UHGV virus genome: UHGV-1378817
Reading direction: 5' to 3' (one strand)
Length of the DNA stretch: 64,000 bases
From: a virus
Made by a program: the position numbers and the translations under genes
Shown here: piece by piece, positions 1,251 to 45,443 of the stretch
Layout: the number at the start of each line of letters is the position of its first letter
Position numbering within the stretch: the first letter of the stretch is position 1
Notes under the pieces: generated by a model
The model's input: the letters and a program-made list of their open reading frames with translations, nothing else
Databases searched by the model: none
What the model was told of the DNA's origin: nothing

Positions 1251-2996
1251 TTAACGTTGTGCAATTACCACGTCTACGATATCACCAACACCGCAATACG
1301 TTAATTGCAGCAAGGTAACACTGTTAGCCTTGTTGTTAATAACAGGTGTTGCCGACAGGATAGCATACTTATCGTGCAAAGTCACGTTGTGACCTACAGC
1401 ATCCTGAATGACATAGATAACTGCAGTGAATGGATAAGGTTTATCTTCCGCTGATGTACCAGGCCATTGCCCTATTGTAAAATCCCCTTTCGCGTGAACA
1501 ACATACATGCTGGCCTGCCCGTTAGGTGTCCATGTCCCACTGGACGCGTCAACCTCCTCTAAATCAAAATCTACCTTTCCTGCGTGGAAAGTAGGGGCAG
1601 TAATGGTTTTACCCGCCTCAATTTCTTGAGAGGTGGTTATCTTACCACTGGAGTTAATGCCATTACAAACAAAGTTGACATTAGAGAAGTCTGGCAGCCA
1701 CCCAGTCACTGTGCCGGATATTTCAAGGTTGTGAAGGTAGGTGGTGCCCGTCCCTGCTGCGTTTAAACTAACATCTCCATTTACCTGCAAGTTTCTGGTA
1801 ACGTTGCAGTTTTCAGAGTTTGCAGTTGTTGCAGTTAAAGTAGTGGTTGTCAGCTCGGTAATTACACCTTTGTTGGCTGTAAGCCCTTCCCCTTCAAAAG
1901 TTGCACGCTCATTGACTCTTAGGGTATTCAGAGCTATGTTTTGGATAGAGGCTGTACCTCGAATAACTACAGATCCGCCAACTTCTAAATCACCATTTAT
2001 TAATGCGTCCCCCGTACTTTCAATATAGCTAGGGTAGATCATGGTGCCATCGACAGAGTAGGTTATCCCTGTAACAGTGCCTGTCACCTCAAGGTTCTTA
2101 ACCCTGGTGGTTCCATCTACCTGCAATGTCGGTTCGGTTGCTGCCTTCATGGCATTACCACGAATGTACACGTAGTCAAAAAAGTTATTACCTAGACCAT
2201 CAAAATGCACATCGTTATTATTAGCCACTGGTTTCCCAGAAGTTATAGTGTCAGCTATAACCCTGTGGGTGGACACTTCATGAGGTTGCAGCTCTGTGCT
2301 TCTCCAGTCTGCATGTTTAGGATCGCTCCACGCAAAAGTAAGTGTAGAAGTATTTGCCGTGAGGATTAGGTTCCTGAAGCGTGCAGTAGAATCTGCTCCA
2401 TTAACAGGCCCATGTAAGGTGAGTGTGCCCCCAACTATGGTGTTAGCAAGTTCTGTAAGACCTTTTACCACCAAAGACCCTACAGTAACTTTCATTCCCT
2501 CCATGGCTTCAAATATGCTATCCACATAGTCAACAACAAACTCTGTGTTTGCTATAGACTCAGACTTATCGTCCATTGGAGGCGTAGGTACTCGCGGGTC
2601 ACCTTCGAACCTCGGGCTGTTAAGTTTTGCGTAGTATTTTGCCATTACTGCAGAATCGGTATATAATCTCCAGTTTGGAGATTGTGAAGGATCTGCTGGC
2701 ATTCTAACAGGGTTAGATTTTGATGCTGCGGGAGCGTACCACCACTGAGGACCTGTGTCCCCTTTAAACTCGTACAGCTGGTTAAAAACTGTTGTGGATG
2801 CGCCATACGCCCAAGGGATCGGTGGCGTTTTAAAATAAAGGTTGTCAAGCATGGCTTTTCGTACCGTAGGGATGGTGGTCCCATCCTCTACGACAACTTC
2901 ATCCACAGCGTTACCGTTGACAACCAAGTGCAAACGTTCAGAATCAACAATTACTTGATCTACCGCCTGCTCAAAGCTTGTCATGTCTTGCGCCAT
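1251..2996 (-). CDS. tail fibre / tailspike protein (581 aa)
   Basis: Long ORF in fibre cluster; Gly/Thr/Asn-rich repetitive beta-type sequence (e.g. TGTVTGITYSVDG, GDLEVGGSVVIRG) typical of fibre/spike shafts. Confidence 0.55.
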   Translation of the reverse strand: MAQDMTSFEQAVDQVIVDSERLHLVVNGNAVDEVVVEDGTTIPTVRKAMLDNLYFKTPPIPWAYGASTTVFNQLYEFKGDTGPQWWYAPAASKSNPVRMPADPSQSPNWRLYTDSAVMAKYYAKLNSPRFEGDPRVPTPPMDDKSESIANTEFVVDYVDSIFEAMEGMKVTVGSLVVKGLTELANTIVGGTLTLHGPVNGADSTARFRNLILTANTSTLTFAWSDPKHADWRSTELQPHEVSTHRVIADTITSGKPVANNNDVHFDGLGNNFFDYVYIRGNAMKAATEPTLQVDGTTRVKNLEVTGTVTGITYSVDGTMIYPSYIESTGDALINGDLEVGGSVVIRGTASIQNIALNTLRVNERATFEGEGLTANKGVITELTTTTLTATTANSENCNVTRNLQVNGDVSLNAAGTGTTYLHNLEISGTVTGWLPDFSNVNFVCNGINSSGKITTSQEIEAGKTITAPTFHAGKVDFDLEEVDASSGTWTPNGQASMYVVHAKGDFTIGQWPGTSAEDKPYPFTAVIYVIQDAVGHNVTLHDKYAILSATPVINNKANSVTLLQLTYCGVGDIVDVVIAQR

Positions 2997-42434: not shown

Positions 42435-42704
42435 TTATCGAGGCACTCGGTGGATGATTCTAACAGTAACTGCATTTTCATTCATCAAGTATGCATCTAC
42501 ATCTCTGTAAATATAAAACTTCTGCTCACTATCAACAACACAAGCTACCGCCCCTTCAGAGTTGTCTTCAAAAAAGACCACCACTGCATCGCAGCTGAGT
42601 TCATGATATGACTCTCGAAGATTTACAGCCAGAGGATTGAAATCGTCACGAAAATCTACGGTATGGGTTGGATTTACACGCTCTACAATTTTAAGTGTAT
42701 ACAT
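42435..42704 (-). CDS. hypothetical protein (90 aa), start revised
   Basis: Track ORF 42435..42794 would overlap tRNA-Pro; internal ATG at 42704 has AAGGAA SD 8 nt upstream. Confidence 0.4.
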   Translation of the reverse strand: MYTLKIVERVNPTHTVDFRDDFNPLAVNLRESYHELSCDAVVVFFEDNSEGAVACVVDSEQKFYIYRDVDAYLMNENAVTVRIIHRVPR

Positions 42705-42750
42705 TTTAAAGGTTCCTTTTGTTTGTATATGTTTAAAGTATAACTGAAAG

Positions 42751-42827
42751 TGGTCTCCACGGAGTGATTCGAACACTCGACCTCCTGATCCCAAATCAGG
42801 CGCTCTACCAAGCTGAGCTACGCGGAG
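42751..42827 (-). tRNA. tRNA-Pro (anticodon UGG)
   Basis: Hand-folded cloverleaf: acceptor CUCCGCG/CGUGGAG (one G-U), D-arm GCUC..GAGC, anticodon loop UUUGGGA, T-arm GAGUG-UUCGAAU-CACUC, encoded CCA. Confidence 0.8.
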
Positions 42828-42838
42828 TATTTATTATT

Positions 42839-42913
42839 TGGTGGCCCTGGGTGGAATTGAACCACCGTCTGGCGATTATGAGTCGCTTGCTTGAACCTTC
42901 CAGCTACAGGGCC
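42839..42913 (-). tRNA. tRNA-Met (anticodon CAU; elongator Met or Ile2, G1-C72 paired)
   Basis: Acceptor GGCCCUG/CAGGGCC perfect, anticodon loop CUCAUAA, T-arm GGUGG-UUCAAUU-CCACC, encoded CCA. Confidence 0.75.
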
Positions 42914-42914
42914 A

Positions 42915-42990
42915 TGGTGCTGATAGCAGGACTCGAACCTGCAACCTATTGATTACAAATCAATTGCACTACCAATTGTGCTACATCAGC
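42915..42990 (-). tRNA. tRNA-Thr (anticodon UGU)
   Basis: Acceptor GCUGAUG/UAUCAGC (one G-U), D-arm GCAC..GUGC, anticodon loop UUUGUAA, T-arm GCAGG-UUCGAGU-CCUGC, encoded CCA. Confidence 0.8.
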
Positions 42991-42995
42991 AAAAA

Positions 42996-43094
42996 GGTGC
43001 TAGGTGATGGAATCGAACCACCTATGTATTCAACGACTACCTCGTCTATTTTCAGGATTAAAAATCCTCGCCCTTGCCAAAGGGCTTACCTAGC
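42996..43094 (-). ncRNA. atypical tRNA-like gene (98 nt), possible pseudo/variant tRNA with UUU anticodon-like loop
   Basis: Perfect 7-bp acceptor GCUAGGU/ACCUAGC, D-arm GCCC-UUUGGCAA-GGGC, T-arm GGUGG-UUCGAUU-CCAUC, but 3' end is CC not CCA and there is a 30-nt extra region between anticodon and T arms. Confidence 0.35.
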
Positions 43095-43100
43095 TCAGTA

Positions 43101-43189
43101 TGTTGACCATGTTGCTAGTCGGCGATGACGACTGTAACATTTGATAATCCGGTTCTGCTTCCGGCTTTCGCTTAATTACAAGGTCAACA
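43101..43189. ncRNA. candidate structured RNA element inside tRNA cluster
   Basis: 8-bp terminal helix UGUUGACC...GGUCAACA encloses about 72 nt with two internal hairpins (AGUCG/CGACU and CCGG/CCGG); does not fold as a canonical tRNA by hand. Confidence 0.2.
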
Positions 43190-43192
43190 ATA

Positions 43193-43283
43193 TGGCTGAG
43201 GGTAATGGAATCGAACCATCATCGAGTCATCCTCAACGGGACGGTTTTCAAGACCGCTTGAGCACCATTGCTCCCTACCCTCA
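43193..43283 (-). tRNA. tRNA-Ser (anticodon UGA), type II
   Basis: 91 nt; acceptor UGAGGGU/ACCCUCA, anticodon stem GCGGU/ACCGU with loop CUUGAAA, long variable arm, T-arm GAUGG-UUCGAUU-CCAUU, discriminator G, encoded CCA. Confidence 0.7.
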
Positions 43284-43397
43284 TTTATAAACAATACTGA
43301 TAATGACACTGATTTTCGAGCAGTTAGTGACTAGTATAAACGACGATAAATATCAATGCCATTATCTGTATGATTTATGCATTTAAAACTATAAATT

Positions 43398-43484
43398 TGG
43401 TGGGGAGTGGTGGAGTCGAACCACCCGAGTCGCAATGACAATAGATTTACAGTCTACACCGCTACCTCTACGGGATAACTCCCC
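43398..43484 (-). tRNA. tRNA-Tyr (anticodon GUA), type II
   Basis: 87 nt; acceptor GGGGAGU/ACUCCCC, anticodon arm GUAGA-CUGUAAA-UCUAU, long variable arm, T-arm GGUGG-UUCGACU-CCACC, encoded CCA. Confidence 0.8.
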
Positions 43485-43488
43485 AATT

Positions 43489-43563
43489 TGGCACCCCGTA
43501 CTGGACTCGAACCAGTGTCAACGGCTTAGAAGGCCGCTGCTTTATCCACTAAGCTAACAGGGC
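43489..43563 (-). tRNA. tRNA-Arg (anticodon UCU)
   Basis: Acceptor GCCCUGU/ACGGGGU (two G-U), D-arm GCUU..AAGC, anticodon arm GCGGC-CUUCUAA-GCCGU, T-arm CUGG-UUCGAGU-CCAG, encoded CCA. Confidence 0.75.
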
Positions 43564-43621
43564 ACTGGGTGGCTTTCTTTTACACCTTAGCCGCCAGAAA
43601 AGGTGGGAGACCATGTTTACA

Positions 43622-43650
43622 ATATTACACTGTTAAGCAAAGTTTGTCAA
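43622..43650 (-). promoter_or_regulatory. near-consensus sigma70-type promoter for the tRNA cluster (TTGACA-17-TAATAT)
   Basis: Minus strand reads TTGACA AACTTTGCTTAACAGTG TAATAT; predicted start about 50 nt upstream of tRNA-Arg 5' end. Confidence 0.5.
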
Positions 43651-44039: not shown

Positions 44040-44300
44040 AAATACTGATTGTCAAGTTCGCCGCAGGGTGGTATTCCCTGCGACTTGCCCAGCGTCCTGG
44101 ACCAGCAAGACCCAACAAGTGGGTTTTCCAGCTATACCCATTACCGCACACAGGCTCGACCTTATTACAGGTTGGCTGGGGTCACATCGTCATGTGCTGG
44201 CTGCCCCTACCATTTTAAGTGTGGTGCACTATCAAGCCCTCTAAGGGGAACTCAGCCTTCTCCGAACCCTGTTTCAAAGCATCCGGAGATAAAGCCATCA
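44040..44300. other. GC-rich non-coding island (candidate structured RNA or acquired fragment)
   Basis: Visibly GC-richer than flanking AT-rich phage DNA; local hairpin GCAGGG-UGGUAUU-CCCUGC; overlapping plus-strand ORFs lack SD/start context. Confidence 0.2.
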
Positions 44301-44665: not shown

Positions 44666-44875
44666 TCAACAGATTCCGGCCTTATCTCGCCTGTCTGCGT
44701 ATTCTTTAATCGCAACCTCCTCGGCATGGGTGACTAAATCTTCAAAGTAACTCTCAAGCTCCTCGTCAATGTCAGGAAACCAACTCTTTTTCCTGTCAGT
44801 GTGAATCGCAGACTTGTTGAATTTATTACAGTTCTTTGCTACCGGATTGTTCATTAATCGCCCCTCAGCGTTCAT
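44666..44875 (-). CDS. hypothetical protein (69 aa)
   Basis: ORF from track, overlaps upstream gene end by 11 nt. Confidence 0.3.
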   Translation of the reverse strand: MNAEGRLMNNPVAKNCNKFNKSAIHTDRKKSWFPDIDEELESYFEDLVTHAEEVAIKEYADRRDKAGIC

Positions 44876-45443
44876 AGTAAATCTTATTTAACATTACCTC
44901 ATCCTTTGCAGAGAGAATACCGAGATATGCATCACCGAACCTACCTGCAACAACCTCTACATGATACATAACTTCGTTAATATCGTCAAGAGTGATAACT
45001 GGATGACCGTATCTCTCTGAGTATTGTCTCAGAGTGCGATGTAGGGAATCATCATCGTAGGCAGACTTTTTAATATCACAAACACGACGAATAGCCTTGA
45101 TGTCGAAAAACCCTGTGCGATACCAACCAAGAAAAAGGTTTCGTACAGTGTCAACACCTACATCAACACCGTCAAGAACCTTATCTACAAGATAGCTGTC
45201 ATCCTTTGGACCTGCTTCCTTAGTTCGAATGTAGTTGCCATCTTTTCCAGGTGACAGCTCCTTCTCATCACCAACCTGAATGCCATCATTTGGCGGTGTT
45301 AACCACTTATCCGGATGCTTACGATCACGAGCGTTAGAATGATTACGCTGGAAACCTGGCTTCCACTTGAAAGTTTTCTCCATCTGTTCTTCATTCTGAT
45401 AACGTTTTGCAATCTTTTCACGGTCATCTTTGCGTGGACTCAT
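44865..45443 (-). CDS. hypothetical protein (192 aa)
   Basis: ATG with GAGGAGG SD; basic N-terminus; first gene downstream of the long non-coding region. Confidence 0.45.
   Translation of the reverse strand: MSPRKDDREKIAKRYQNEEQMEKTFKWKPGFQRNHSNARDRKHPDKWLTPPNDGIQVGDEKELSPGKDGNYIRTKEAGPKDDSYLVDKVLDGVDVGVDTVRNLFLGWYRTGFFDIKAIRRVCDIKKSAYDDDSLHRTLRQYSERYGHPVITLDDINEVMYHVEVVAGRFGDAYLGILSAKDEVMLNKIYYER

What the first reader, a model, noticed from the sequence alone, without database searches (positions are those of the whole stretch)
43101..43189. Unclassified structured element embedded between tRNAs
An 8-bp terminal helix (TGTTGACC ... GGTCAACA) encloses about 72 nt with two internal perfect hairpins. 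It occupies the space of one tRNA inside the operon but does not fold as a cloverleaf by hand. T4-type tRNA clusters are known to contain small stable RNAs of unknown function.
Basis: seen in the sequence. Interest (0 to 1): 0.4.

Follow-up and report, generated by a model that had tools for sequence, protein, structure and literature searches.

The report
Conserved small RNA among phage tRNAs
The roughly 90-base gap between two tRNA genes of this rV5-like coliphage holds a conserved, helix-closed RNA fold that also sits unannotated in phage lambda's late leader and in P7/D6 plasmid prophages; it matches no described RNA family, and its function is unknown.

Summary
An 8-bp helix (12 nt with one mismatch) at 43101-43112/43178-43189 encloses two perfect hairpins. 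The element lies on the minus strand, the strand of the seven tRNAs, in an rV5/FV3-like Vequintavirus, not a T4-type phage.

It is not a tRNA (ARAGORN, Rfam) and matches none of 4227 Rfam families, even at E<=10.

Its 65-nt core recurs at about 87% identity in three otherwise unrelated coliphage groups:
- rV5-likes, in the tRNA array.
- P7/D6 plasmid prophages, directly 3' of the same odd tRNA-Ser(UGA).
- Lambda and lambdoid prophages, between tR' and S, abutting the recently reported LPR2 sRNA.

The core is nearly invariant, while the closing helix P1 occurs in seven different sequences that all pair. All nine P1 pairs change on both sides, and G-U pairs mark the tRNA strand. P3 also covaries. 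P2 and both loops are invariant.

The best reading is a new family of small structured RNA, cut out of polycistronic tRNA/sRNA transcripts and acting in trans on a host factor. That it is a structured RNA is well supported. Processing is inferred from context. The target and function are unknown. It shows no homology to T4 rnaC/rnaD.

The parts
43178..43189 (-). P1 5' strand, UGUUGACCUUGU (outer 8 nt perfect, one U-U mismatch, then 3 bp).
   Evidence: covariation
43165..43177 (-). J1/2, AAUUAAGCGAAAG. AAUUAAGCGA is near-invariant in the family and the last 3 nt vary. GCGA (43171-43168) could pair with UCGC in L3 as a pseudoknot.
43149..43164 (-). P2 hairpin, CCGG-AAGCAGAA-CCGG. Stem and 8-nt loop are invariant in all family members.
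   Evidence: four scans for P2 variants gave only chance hits
43134..43148 (-). J2/3, AUUAUCAAAUGUUAC. AU..A..AAAUG is conserved. UGU (43139-43137) can pair with GCA (43115-43113) as a short P3a.
43117..43133 (-). P3 hairpin, AGUCG-UCAUCGC-CGACU. The 7-nt loop is near-invariant. The stem covaries with the lambda type (GGCG/CGCC).
43113..43116 (-). J3/1, AGCA (3' half of the possible P3a).
43101..43112 (-). P1 3' strand, ACAUGGUCAACA.
43193..43283 (-). Upstream neighbour: tRNA-Ser(UGA) with an 8-bp acceptor stem. Together with the element it forms a module of about 175 nt shared with P7/D6 at about 83% identity.
42996..43094 (-). Downstream neighbour: odd 99-nt tRNA. An RNase P cut at its 5' end would define the 3' side of the released element (inferred).
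43622..43650 (-). Promoter-like site TTGACA-17-TAATAT upstream of tRNA-Arg, the likely start of the transcript that carries the element.

Best explanation
The stretch is a gene for a small structured non-coding RNA of a family not yet described. It is transcribed on the minus strand as part of the tRNA operon, with a promoter-like site at 43650-43622. Because it sits 3 nt after the CCA end of tRNA-Ser and 6 nt before the next tRNA, ordinary tRNA maturation should free it. That means an RNase P cut at the 5' end of the downstream tRNA, and endonuclease plus 3' exonuclease trimming behind tRNA-Ser. The product would be an RNA of about 90-95 nt whose ends are locked in helix P1. The fold is a three-way junction. 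P1 is variable in sequence but always paired. P2 (CCGG/CCGG) has an invariant 8-nt loop AAGCAGAA. P3 has an invariant 7-nt loop UCAUCGC. The joining strands are conserved, and GCGA in J1/2 may form a pseudoknot with UCGC in L3. In P7/D6 the same core is enclosed by a roughly 23-bp helix. That helix is homologous to the stem that encloses the lambda sRNA LPR2. In lambdoid phages the core lies directly 3' of LPR2. So three different processing contexts deliver the same core. I infer that the freed RNA acts in trans during lytic growth on an E. coli component, a protein or an RNA, through its invariant loops and junctions. Shown here: the fold, its conservation, covariation and strand, its distribution, and the absence of any known-family match. 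Inferred: transcription, excision and stability. Guessed: trans action on a host target.
For: The window is rV5/FV3-like and its tRNAs are on the minus strand.

The core recurs in unrelated phages. Window 43110-43177 is 87% identical to lambda 44866-44934 and to D6, which share nothing else with rV5-likes. P7 carries it too. An exact 18-mer of the core finds 120 or more viral contigs. Complete E. coli genomes carry unannotated copies on chromosomes and plasmids.

P1 is selected as a helix. It occurs in seven different sequences, all paired except in one recombinant. On the model-fitted alignment all nine P1 pairs change on both sides and 93.9% of cells pair. The covariation score is 0.382 against 0.102 in shuffles (0 of 500 reach it) and at most 0.096 when partners are slid. 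The plain MAFFT alignment gives the same direction.

Window against the most divergent rV5-like copy (L119): core 97% identical, tRNAs 91-100%, P1 strands 42% identical yet both helical.

Strand: G-U pairs occur at nine pair positions on the tRNA strand. The reverse signal, A-C, occurs at two.

The element is tightly packed between tRNAs, with a promoter-like site upstream of the array.

The lambda neighbour is a proven processed RNA. The LPR2 northern probe P844 maps inside the hairpin that abuts the element. LPR2 is a roughly 63-nt, Hfq-bound RNA of the lytic cycle (bioRxiv 10.1101/2024.10.31.621285). The D6/P7 closing helix uses the same stem sequence.
Against: There is no expression, processing or stability data for this element in any phage. 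The lambda RIL-seq study named LPR2 and 6S from this region but not this element, so it may not be an abundant Hfq-bound species.

The family is narrow, limited to coliphages and one Enterobacter prophage, and its members are closely related. The effective sequence number is 1.36. The covariation therefore rests on few independent events. Some P1 changes may come from recombination at cassette boundaries rather than stepwise compensation.

P2 and the proposed pseudoknot never vary, so they are untested as pairs. One recombinant (L032, 2 contigs) lacks P1.

No target is known. There is no significant identity or complementarity to E. coli rRNAs, 4.5S, M1, the tmRNA region or 6S RNA.
Confidence: 0.45

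Rival explanations
1. It is a cis-acting processing or folding module. The helix-closed fold serves only to insulate and help mature its neighbours (the 3' end of tRNA-Ser or LPR2, the 5' end of the next tRNA). For example, it could present cleavage sites or prevent misfolding, and it would have no function of its own once released.
For: P1 always starts 0-4 nt after the 3' end of an RNA that must be released: tRNA-Ser in the window, L119, D6 and P7, and LPR2 in lambda. In lambdoids GUUGUG is shared between the LPR2 stem and P1, and both pairings are kept by compensatory changes in L007 and L113. That suggests a coupled refolding or processing step. tRNA-Ser and the element travel together as one module.
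Against: A mere spacer or insulator would not need about 45 invariant unpaired nucleotides and an invariant P2. Other tRNAs in the same arrays are separated by 1-12 nt with no such element. Lambdoid copies persist where the flanking tRNAs have decayed or are absent.
Confidence: 0.2
2. It is a new self-cleaving ribozyme or a ligand- or protein-binding aptamer, with a compact pseudoknotted three-way junction whose invariant nucleotides form an active or binding site.
For: The conservation pattern is that of a tertiary fold. Stems P1 and P3 covary, while loops, junctions and a possible GCGA/UCGC pseudoknot are invariant. The element sits exactly at RNA boundaries. LPR2's size of about 63 nt fits a cut at the 5' edge of P1; that is my arithmetic.
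Against: There is no match to any Rfam ribozyme or riboswitch at E<=10. No expression platform is present in the rV5 context. Invariance may simply reflect recent horizontal spread. Host RNases (RNase III, P, E) suffice to explain the processing.
Confidence: 0.08
3. It is a decayed tRNA or other relic that hitch-hikes with the tRNA-Ser gene and has no function.
For: It occupies a tRNA-sized slot. Lambdoid late leaders contain obvious tRNA remnants around it. It is absent from phi80 and from T4 and T5 tRNA clusters, so it is dispensable for those phages.
Against: It is not tRNA-like by ARAGORN or by the Rfam tRNA model, even at E<=10. The core is as conserved as the functional tRNAs (97%), while its flanking helix strands diverged to 42% yet stay complementary. 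It is kept in three phage lineages, including lambdoids where neighbouring tRNAs decayed.
Confidence: 0.07
4. It is a classical Hfq-dependent base-pairing sRNA or sponge, like its lambda neighbour LPR2 or the anti-sRNAs AgvB/AsxR of the same prophage region, for example one that titrates GcvB through CACAAC motifs.
For: In lambda it adjoins LPR2. Lambda-type P1 and its flank carry CACAAC, the GcvB R1 target consensus quoted by Tree et al. 2014.
Against: CACAAC is absent from the window and L119 copies, whose P1 reads ACAUGGUCAACA and UGAUCCUU, so it is not a family feature. AgvB/AsxR are 51-60 nt, terminator-ended and antisense to pR'. This element has no terminator or U-tail, and the lambda RIL-seq study did not report it.
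Confidence: 0.05
5. It is a DNA-level signal or a small protein-coding gene.
For: A conserved AUG opens short ORFs of 14-21 codons in all classes. The region is an inverted repeat in DNA too.
Against: A 1-nt indel puts the rV5-type and lambda-type ORFs in different frames, giving MLQSSSPTS... against MRTGVIAAQ..., and there is no Shine-Dalgarno sequence. The arms vary while the core is fixed, the opposite of terminal repeats or operators. G-U pairs are strand-specific.
Confidence: 0.02

Closest known systems
T4 small stable RNAs rnaC and rnaD (species 1 and 2)
   Same: They are non-tRNA RNAs encoded inside a phage tRNA cluster, co-transcribed with the tRNAs and of unknown function. The T4 record annotates both as small, stable RNAs directly after tRNA-Arg.
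   Different: No homology is detectable. The covariance model of this element scores 11 bits or less across the T4 cluster and nothing over rnaC/rnaD. The T4 RNAs are 119-139 nt, and rnaC carries a T-arm-like hairpin. This element has none. The phage here is rV5-like, not T4-like.
Lambda LPR2 sRNA (bioRxiv 10.1101/2024.10.31.621285)
   Same: It comes from the same lambda late-leader region and the same strand, and is excised from the late transcript as a discrete small RNA in the lytic cycle. The stem that encloses LPR2 is the same stem family that encloses this element in D6/P7.
   Different: It is a different RNA. The LPR2 probe maps to the hairpin immediately 5' of the element. The LPR2 insert varies among lambdoids, whereas this core is fixed. 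Hfq binding has been reported for LPR2 and not for this element.
Hairpin-like phage RNAs matured by RNase P: P1/P7 C4 antisense RNA, P4 CI RNA, phi80 M3 RNA
   Same: They are small structured coliphage RNAs cut from longer precursors by host tRNA-processing enzymes. By my own knowledge, C4 acts through two loops that pair with a target, which is a plausible model for two invariant loops here.
   Different: There is no match to the Rfam C4 model or any other. A 3' CCA after P1 is present only in some lambda-type copies. phi80 M3 is the oop homologue, located elsewhere in the genome, and phi80 lacks this element. No target with complementarity to the loops is known.
tRNA-operon spacer RNAs with their own function, such as the E. 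coli 3'ETS-leuZ sponge (own knowledge: Lalaouna et al. 2015)
   Same: An RNA released as a by-product of tRNA operon processing acts in trans.
   Different: That RNA is an unstructured base-pairing sponge bound by Hfq. This element is a conserved three-way-junction fold. The comparison is an analogy only and was not tested.
Transfer RNA (RF00005)
   Same: It has the size and position of a tRNA gene and is closed by a terminal helix of 8-12 bp.
   Different: It has no cloverleaf, no T-loop or D-loop sequence, and no hit with ARAGORN or the Rfam tRNA or tRNA-Sec models.

Membership tests
tRNA (RF00005 / clan CL00001) | A cloverleaf with a 7-bp acceptor stem, D arm, anticodon arm and T arm with the UUCRANY loop, detectable by ARAGORN or Infernal. 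| tested here: not met
   ARAGORN finds 7 tRNAs and none in 43101-43189. cmscan at E<=10 gives no tRNA-clan hit there. The loops are AAGCAGAA and UCAUCGC.
Any Rfam 15 family, including C4 antisense RNA, hammerhead, twister, pistol, hatchet and HDV-like ribozymes, and riboswitches | A covariance-model score at or near the family's gathering threshold. | tested here: not met
   No match overlaps the element in the window, nor its lambda and D6 copies, with permissive filters at E<=10.
T4 rnaC / rnaD small stable RNAs | Sequence or structure homology to the T4 species 1 and 2 RNAs. | tested here: not met
   Model R1 run with filters off over the T4 cluster gives a best score of 10.8 bits, located elsewhere, and nothing over 2909-3172 of L168.
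T4 rnaC / rnaD small stable RNAs | Location in a phage tRNA operon and release as a stable RNA by tRNA-processing enzymes. | tested here: inconclusive
   The location criterion is met. Release and stability cannot be tested with sequence tools.
Lambda LPR2 sRNA | Identity with the roughly 63-nt RNA detected by probe P844. | tested here: not met
   The reverse complement of the probe, UCGUGAAGAGUCGGCGAGCCUGGUUAGCCAGUGCU, lies in the hairpin 5' of the element and does not overlap the core.
AgvB/AsxR anti-sRNAs of lambdoid prophages | 51-60 nt long, antisense to pR', with a conserved 3' terminator part of about 42 nt and a variable 5' seed. | tested here: not met
   The element is on the pR'-sense strand, has no terminator, and its ends vary while its core is conserved.
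New family proposed here (three-way-junction core RNA) | A P1 closing helix of free sequence; AAUUAAGCGA; CCGG-AAGCAGAA-CCGG; AAAUG; a P3 stem with loop UCAUCGC; AGC. | tested here: met
   The window copy scores 92.2 bits (E 1.6e-21) and is the only hit in 64 kb. 30 of 30 representative loci score 87-119 bits.

The most novel reading that the evidence does not exclude
The core is a new functional RNA class, either a catalytic or ligand-binding fold, or an RNA decoy or inhibitor of a host factor such as an RNA-targeting anti-phage nuclease. It would have been exchanged horizontally among three unrelated coliphage lineages as part of their anti-defence tRNA arrays, and would have stayed hidden in phage lambda's late leader until now.
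Probability: 0.15. Interest if true: 0.85.

Novelty: new variant of a known kind. Interest (0 to 1): 0.55.

Why it matters
Phage tRNA arrays are now understood largely as counter-defence cargo, yet the non-tRNA RNAs embedded in them, such as T4 species 1 and 2, have had no assigned function for fifty years. This element is a tractable case. It is short and has a defined fold. It is present in lambda, P7 and easily handled rV5-like phages, and it has natural variants that already mark which parts must pair and which must keep their sequence. If it acts on a host factor, it would add a structured, apparently Hfq-independent RNA to the small set of phage RNAs known to manipulate E. coli. Even if it only aids processing, it explains a conserved unannotated block in lambda's late leader next to LPR2. 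It also deserves a covariance model for genome annotation: copies in complete E. coli genomes currently carry no feature.

Tried and rejected
- **tRNA or pseudo-tRNA.** ARAGORN and Rfam are both negative.
- **Known RNA family.** Three Rfam scans, including lambda and D6, found nothing.
- **Homology to T4 rnaC/rnaD or to anything in a T5-like tRNA cluster.** The covariance model finds nothing.
- **phi80 M3 RNA as a late-leader relative.** M3 is the oop homologue, and phi80 lacks the element.
- **AgvB-like anti-GcvB RNA.** Its strand, size and terminator are wrong, and CACAAC is lambda-type only.
- **Small ORF.** The frame is not conserved.
- **Mimicry of, or antisense to, host stable RNAs.** Tested against 16S, 23S, 5S, 4.5S, M1, the tmRNA region and 6S. 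The longest exact runs are 8 nt for the window copy, within the shuffle null. A 12-mer shared by lambda and 23S includes family-variable bases. Resemblances I recalled to SRP RNA, RNase P CR-V, the 16S 3' end, a twister P4 and the I-F CRISPR repeat all fall on positions that vary in the family, or are 8-mers.
- **Extending the family.** A degenerate loop pattern over 185,579 species' genomes found only lambda contamination, one Enterobacter prophage and chance hits. Four scans for P2 variants gave only chance hits in coding DNA.
- **RNAalifold on the plain alignment.** It chose invariant pairings with no covariation, one of which (AUGC/GCGU) is broken in rV5-type copies.
- **Literature.** The core sequence is not in the library. 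No paper describing the element was found. RIL-seq supplements gave no usable rows for this locus.

Full report
**What is there**

The window is from an rV5/FV3-like coliphage (genus Vequintavirus). A 941-nt query spanning the tRNA cluster (42700-43640) is 99.8% identical to phages APECc02, CM1 and rV5 variants.

ARAGORN finds seven tRNA genes, all on the minus strand:

| tRNA | Coordinates |
|---|---|
| Arg | 43563-43489 |
| Tyr | 43484-43398 |
| Ser(UGA) | 43283-43193 |
| odd 99-nt tRNA | 43094-42996 |
| Thr | 42990-42915 |
| Met | 42913-42839 |
| Pro | 42827-42751 |

A promoter-like site, TTGACA-17-TAATAT, lies just upstream at 43650-43622.

The finding fills the 98-nt gap between tRNA-Ser and the odd tRNA. 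It is 8 bp perfect and extends to 12 nt with one mismatch, at 43101-43112 / 43178-43189. Both internal hairpins are perfect. Read on the tRNA strand the element is:

UGUUGACCUUGU (P1) - AAUUAAGCGAAAG - CCGG AAGCAGAA CCGG (P2) - AUUAUCAAAUGUUAC - AGUCG UCAUCGC CGACU (P3) - AGCA - ACAUGGUCAACA (P1').

Its folding energy beats shuffles only modestly: z = -2.6, and -3.3 on the other strand. The sequence alone would therefore not be convincing.

**It is not a known RNA**

- ARAGORN calls no tRNA in the element.
- Rfam 15 gives no match over the element at gathering thresholds.
- Rfam also gives no match with permissive filters at E<=10.
- The lambda and D6 copies are equally silent.
- A text search for the core sequence found no paper.
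- A 2025 review of phage sRNAs does not mention the element.

**Relatives**

A sensitive BLAST of the 98 nt found the expected rV5-like phages. Unexpectedly, it also found phage lambda (44866-44934) and the P1-like phage D6, at 87% identity over the 68-nt core. These phages share nothing else with rV5.

- **Lambda.** The match lies between orf-64/tR' and the holin gene S, on the late-transcript strand.
- **D6 and P7.** The match lies in the C1-controlled tRNA-tciA-ban operon. It sits directly after a tRNA-Ser(UGA) that is homologous to the one in the window.
- **The module.** tRNA-Ser plus the element form one module of about 175 nt, shared at about 83% identity between P7 and rV5-like phages.
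- **Viral contigs.** These gave 85 distinct sequence contexts, nearly all lambdoid late leaders or D6-like arrays, plus two more rV5-like variants.
- **Complete E. coli genomes.** A 161-nt lambda query matches in 584 of 5426 genomes. 285 genomes carry the lambda-type copy in full, and 123 matches lie on plasmids. None of the listed matches carries an annotated feature.
- **One genome per species.** A degenerate pattern over 185,579 species' genomes found only one Enterobacter prophage, contaminating lambda DNA and chance hits.

The family is therefore confined to phages of E. coli and close relatives. It is absent from phi80, T4 and a T5-like tRNA cluster.

**Evidence that it is a structured RNA on the tRNA strand**

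Across 29 distinct variants the core is almost invariant, but the closing helix is not. P1 occurs in seven different sequences:

| P1 5' strand | P1 3' strand | Where |
|---|---|---|
| GUUGUGCUG | CAGCACAAC | lambda type |
| UGUGGUG | CACCACA | lambdoid variants |
| UGUGUGGUG | CACCACACA | L113 |
| GUUGUGGUG | CACCGCAAC | L114 |
| AAGAGUAUUUGGCU | AGCCAAGUGCUCUU | D6/P7; inner part of a helix of about 23 bp |
| UGUUGACCUUGU | ACAUGGUCAACA | window |
| GAGGAUCA | UGAUCCUU | L119 |

All pair except one recombinant (L032, found in two contigs), whose two P1 halves come from different classes.

On an alignment fitted to the covariance model:
- All nine P1 pairs change on both sides.
- 93.9% of P1 cells pair.
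- The covariation score is 0.382, against 0.102 in shuffles (0 of 500 reach it) and at most 0.096 when the 3' partners are slid.

The plain MAFFT alignment puts three classes out of register by one column. It still gives 0.189 against 0.085.

P3 covaries between classes: G-C in the lambda type against U-A in the rV5 type. Its fifth pair is A-U in rV5-types, G-C in L057 and A-C in most lambdoids. A 3-bp extension, P3a (UGY/GCA), tolerates only wobble-compatible changes.

Window against the most divergent rV5-like copy (L119):

| Segment | Identity |
|---|---|
| core | 97% |
| tRNAs | 91-100% |
| each P1 strand | 42%, yet both copies form the helix |

G-U pairs occur at nine pair positions on the tRNA strand. 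The opposite signal (A-C) occurs at two. The structure therefore belongs to the RNA of the tRNA strand, which in lambda is the late-transcript strand.

Caveats:
- The sequences are close relatives, with an effective number of 1.36, so independent events are few.
- Some P1 swaps may be recombinational.
- P2 (CCGG/CCGG), both loops and a possible GCGA/UCGC pseudoknot never vary. They can be neither confirmed nor refuted as pairs.
- Four scans for P2 variants found only chance matches.

**Not coding, and not a DNA repeat**

A conserved AUG opens short ORFs, but a 1-nt indel shifts the frame between classes. The peptides are MLQSSSPTS... in the rV5 type and MRTGVIAAQ... in the lambda type. The arms vary while the interior is fixed, which is the reverse of what terminal repeats or operators show.

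**Context and likely mechanism**

The core is delivered in three ways.

- **rV5-like phages.** It sits in a tRNA slot, 3 nt after the CCA of tRNA-Ser and 6 nt before the next tRNA. RNase P and the 3'-trimming enzymes that mature the neighbours should free an RNA of about 90-95 nt sealed by P1. This is inference from established tRNA processing.
- **D6/P7.** The core is enclosed by a helix of about 23 bp, CGCAACGUUAAGAGUAUUUGGCU / AGCCAAGUGCUCUUACCAUUGCG.
- **Lambdoid phages.** A homologous stem, CACAACAGGUAAGAGCA / UGCUCUUUCCGUUGUG, follows tR' directly. It encloses an insert that differs from phage to phage. The element follows at once and re-uses GUUGUG as the 5' strand of P1.

In lambda that upstream hairpin is the recently reported sRNA LPR2. 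The northern probe P844 is complementary to its 3' half. LPR2 is a species of about 63 nt, Hfq-bound and expressed in the lytic cycle. Trimming the 76-nt hairpin by the six outer nucleotides on each side leaves 64 nt. That fits cuts at the CACAAC|AGG and UCC|GUUGUG junctions, that is, at the 5' edge of P1. This is my arithmetic, not a measured end.

Compensatory changes preserve both the LPR2 stem and P1 in variants L007 and L113. Both pairings therefore seem to matter, perhaps one after the other.

RNAs enclosed by this stem family are thus demonstrably excised in lambda, and the D6/P7 core sits in exactly that position. Together with the invariant loops and junctions, this makes a released, trans-acting small RNA aimed at something all three phage groups share, namely the E. 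coli host. That is the best-supported reading. I give the whole chain 0.45. I give about 0.9 to the narrower statement that this is a selected RNA structure.

The main rival, at 0.2, is a purely cis-acting processing or insulator module. A new ribozyme or aptamer, a functionless relic, an Hfq sponge, and a DNA or coding signal are less likely, for the reasons listed under each.

**Search for a target**

I found none. Exact-run comparisons with E. coli 16S, 23S, 5S, 4.5S, M1, the tmRNA region and 6S RNA give only 8-mers for the window copy, which is within the shuffle null. A 12-mer shared by the lambda copy and 23S includes bases that vary in the family. A transcriptome-wide prediction could not be run with these tools.

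**Comparison with known systems**

- **T4 rnaC/rnaD.** The element works like these small stable RNAs in position and probable biogenesis, but it is not homologous to them.
- **LPR2.** It is a neighbour and cassette-mate of LPR2, but a different RNA.
- **Hairpin-like RNase P substrates.** It resembles C4, P4 CI and phi80 M3 only in being a processed phage RNA. phi80 M3 is the oop homologue and lies elsewhere in the genome.

I therefore file it as a new family of a known kind of entity.

**Verdict**

The surprise is the element's distribution, including an unannotated copy in phage lambda. Interest is moderate to high for phage RNA biology, limited by the unknown function.

Noticed in passing
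window 42996-43094 (-): An odd 99-nt tRNA. ARAGORN cannot name it and the Rfam tRNA model gives 35.5 bits. It has a normal acceptor, D and T arms and an anticodon arm AGGA-UUUUUAA-UCCU, which gives UUU (Lys) if the loop is 7 nt. Its variable arm is about 30 nt, unusual for tRNA-Lys. GenBank records call it tRNA-Lys, tRNA-OTHER or '???'. It may be a nuclease-resistant replacement tRNA.
   Followed up: partly
window 43193-43283 (-): tRNA-Ser(UGA) with an 8-bp acceptor stem (UGAGGGUA/UACCCUCA) and G73-CCA. It scores higher with the tRNA-Sec model (40 bits) than with the tRNA model. Homologues sit directly 5' of the element in P7, D6 and many plasmid prophages.
   Followed up: partly
L001 (lambda J02459) about 44781-44856, just 5' of the element: The hairpin that is the published sRNA LPR2 shares its 3' GUUGUG with the element's P1 5' strand, so the two pairings are mutually exclusive. 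The stem is conserved, but its insert differs completely among lambdoid prophages, giving a cassette-like arrangement. D6 has several such CACAAC...GUUGUG-bounded hairpins between its tRNAs.
   Followed up: partly
L001 about 44950-45000, and L057 14430-14500: Directly 3' of the lambdoid copies lies a long hairpin, GCCGUAG...CUGCGGC, followed by a U-run. It looks like a decayed tRNA or a terminator. It shares ACUGAGC and CCUGAA with the start and anticodon region of the window's odd tRNA.
   Followed up: no
window 43284-43397 (-): A 114-nt AT-rich spacer between tRNA-Tyr and tRNA-Ser is 85% conserved against the divergent relative L119. It contains a weak promoter-like site (43362-43333).
   Followed up: no
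window 44056-44300: A GC-rich stretch of about 250 nt with no convincing ORF lies upstream of a near-consensus promoter (TTGACA-17-TAAAAT, 44055-44027, minus strand). It has no Rfam hit and its fold z-score is only -1.6.
   Followed up: partly
L002 (D6) 1360-1480 (-): A sub-threshold match to Rfam STnc100 (39.6 bits against a gathering score of 47) lies between the element and tciA in D6.
   Followed up: no
loci L124-L166 (genome-contig scan): Sequence identical to phage lambda turns up in assemblies of about 25 unrelated species (Pseudomonas, Bradyrhizobium, Veillonella, Kitasatospora and others). It often lies on low-coverage contigs of about 48.4 kb, which points to laboratory lambda DNA contamination.
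   Followed up: no
GenBank MG0656xx records: About 19 records labelled 'Campylobacter phage' are about 98-100% identical to rV5-like coliphages over this region. One, CJLB-4, is identical to lambda over the 85-nt element. The host labels look wrong.
   Followed up: no
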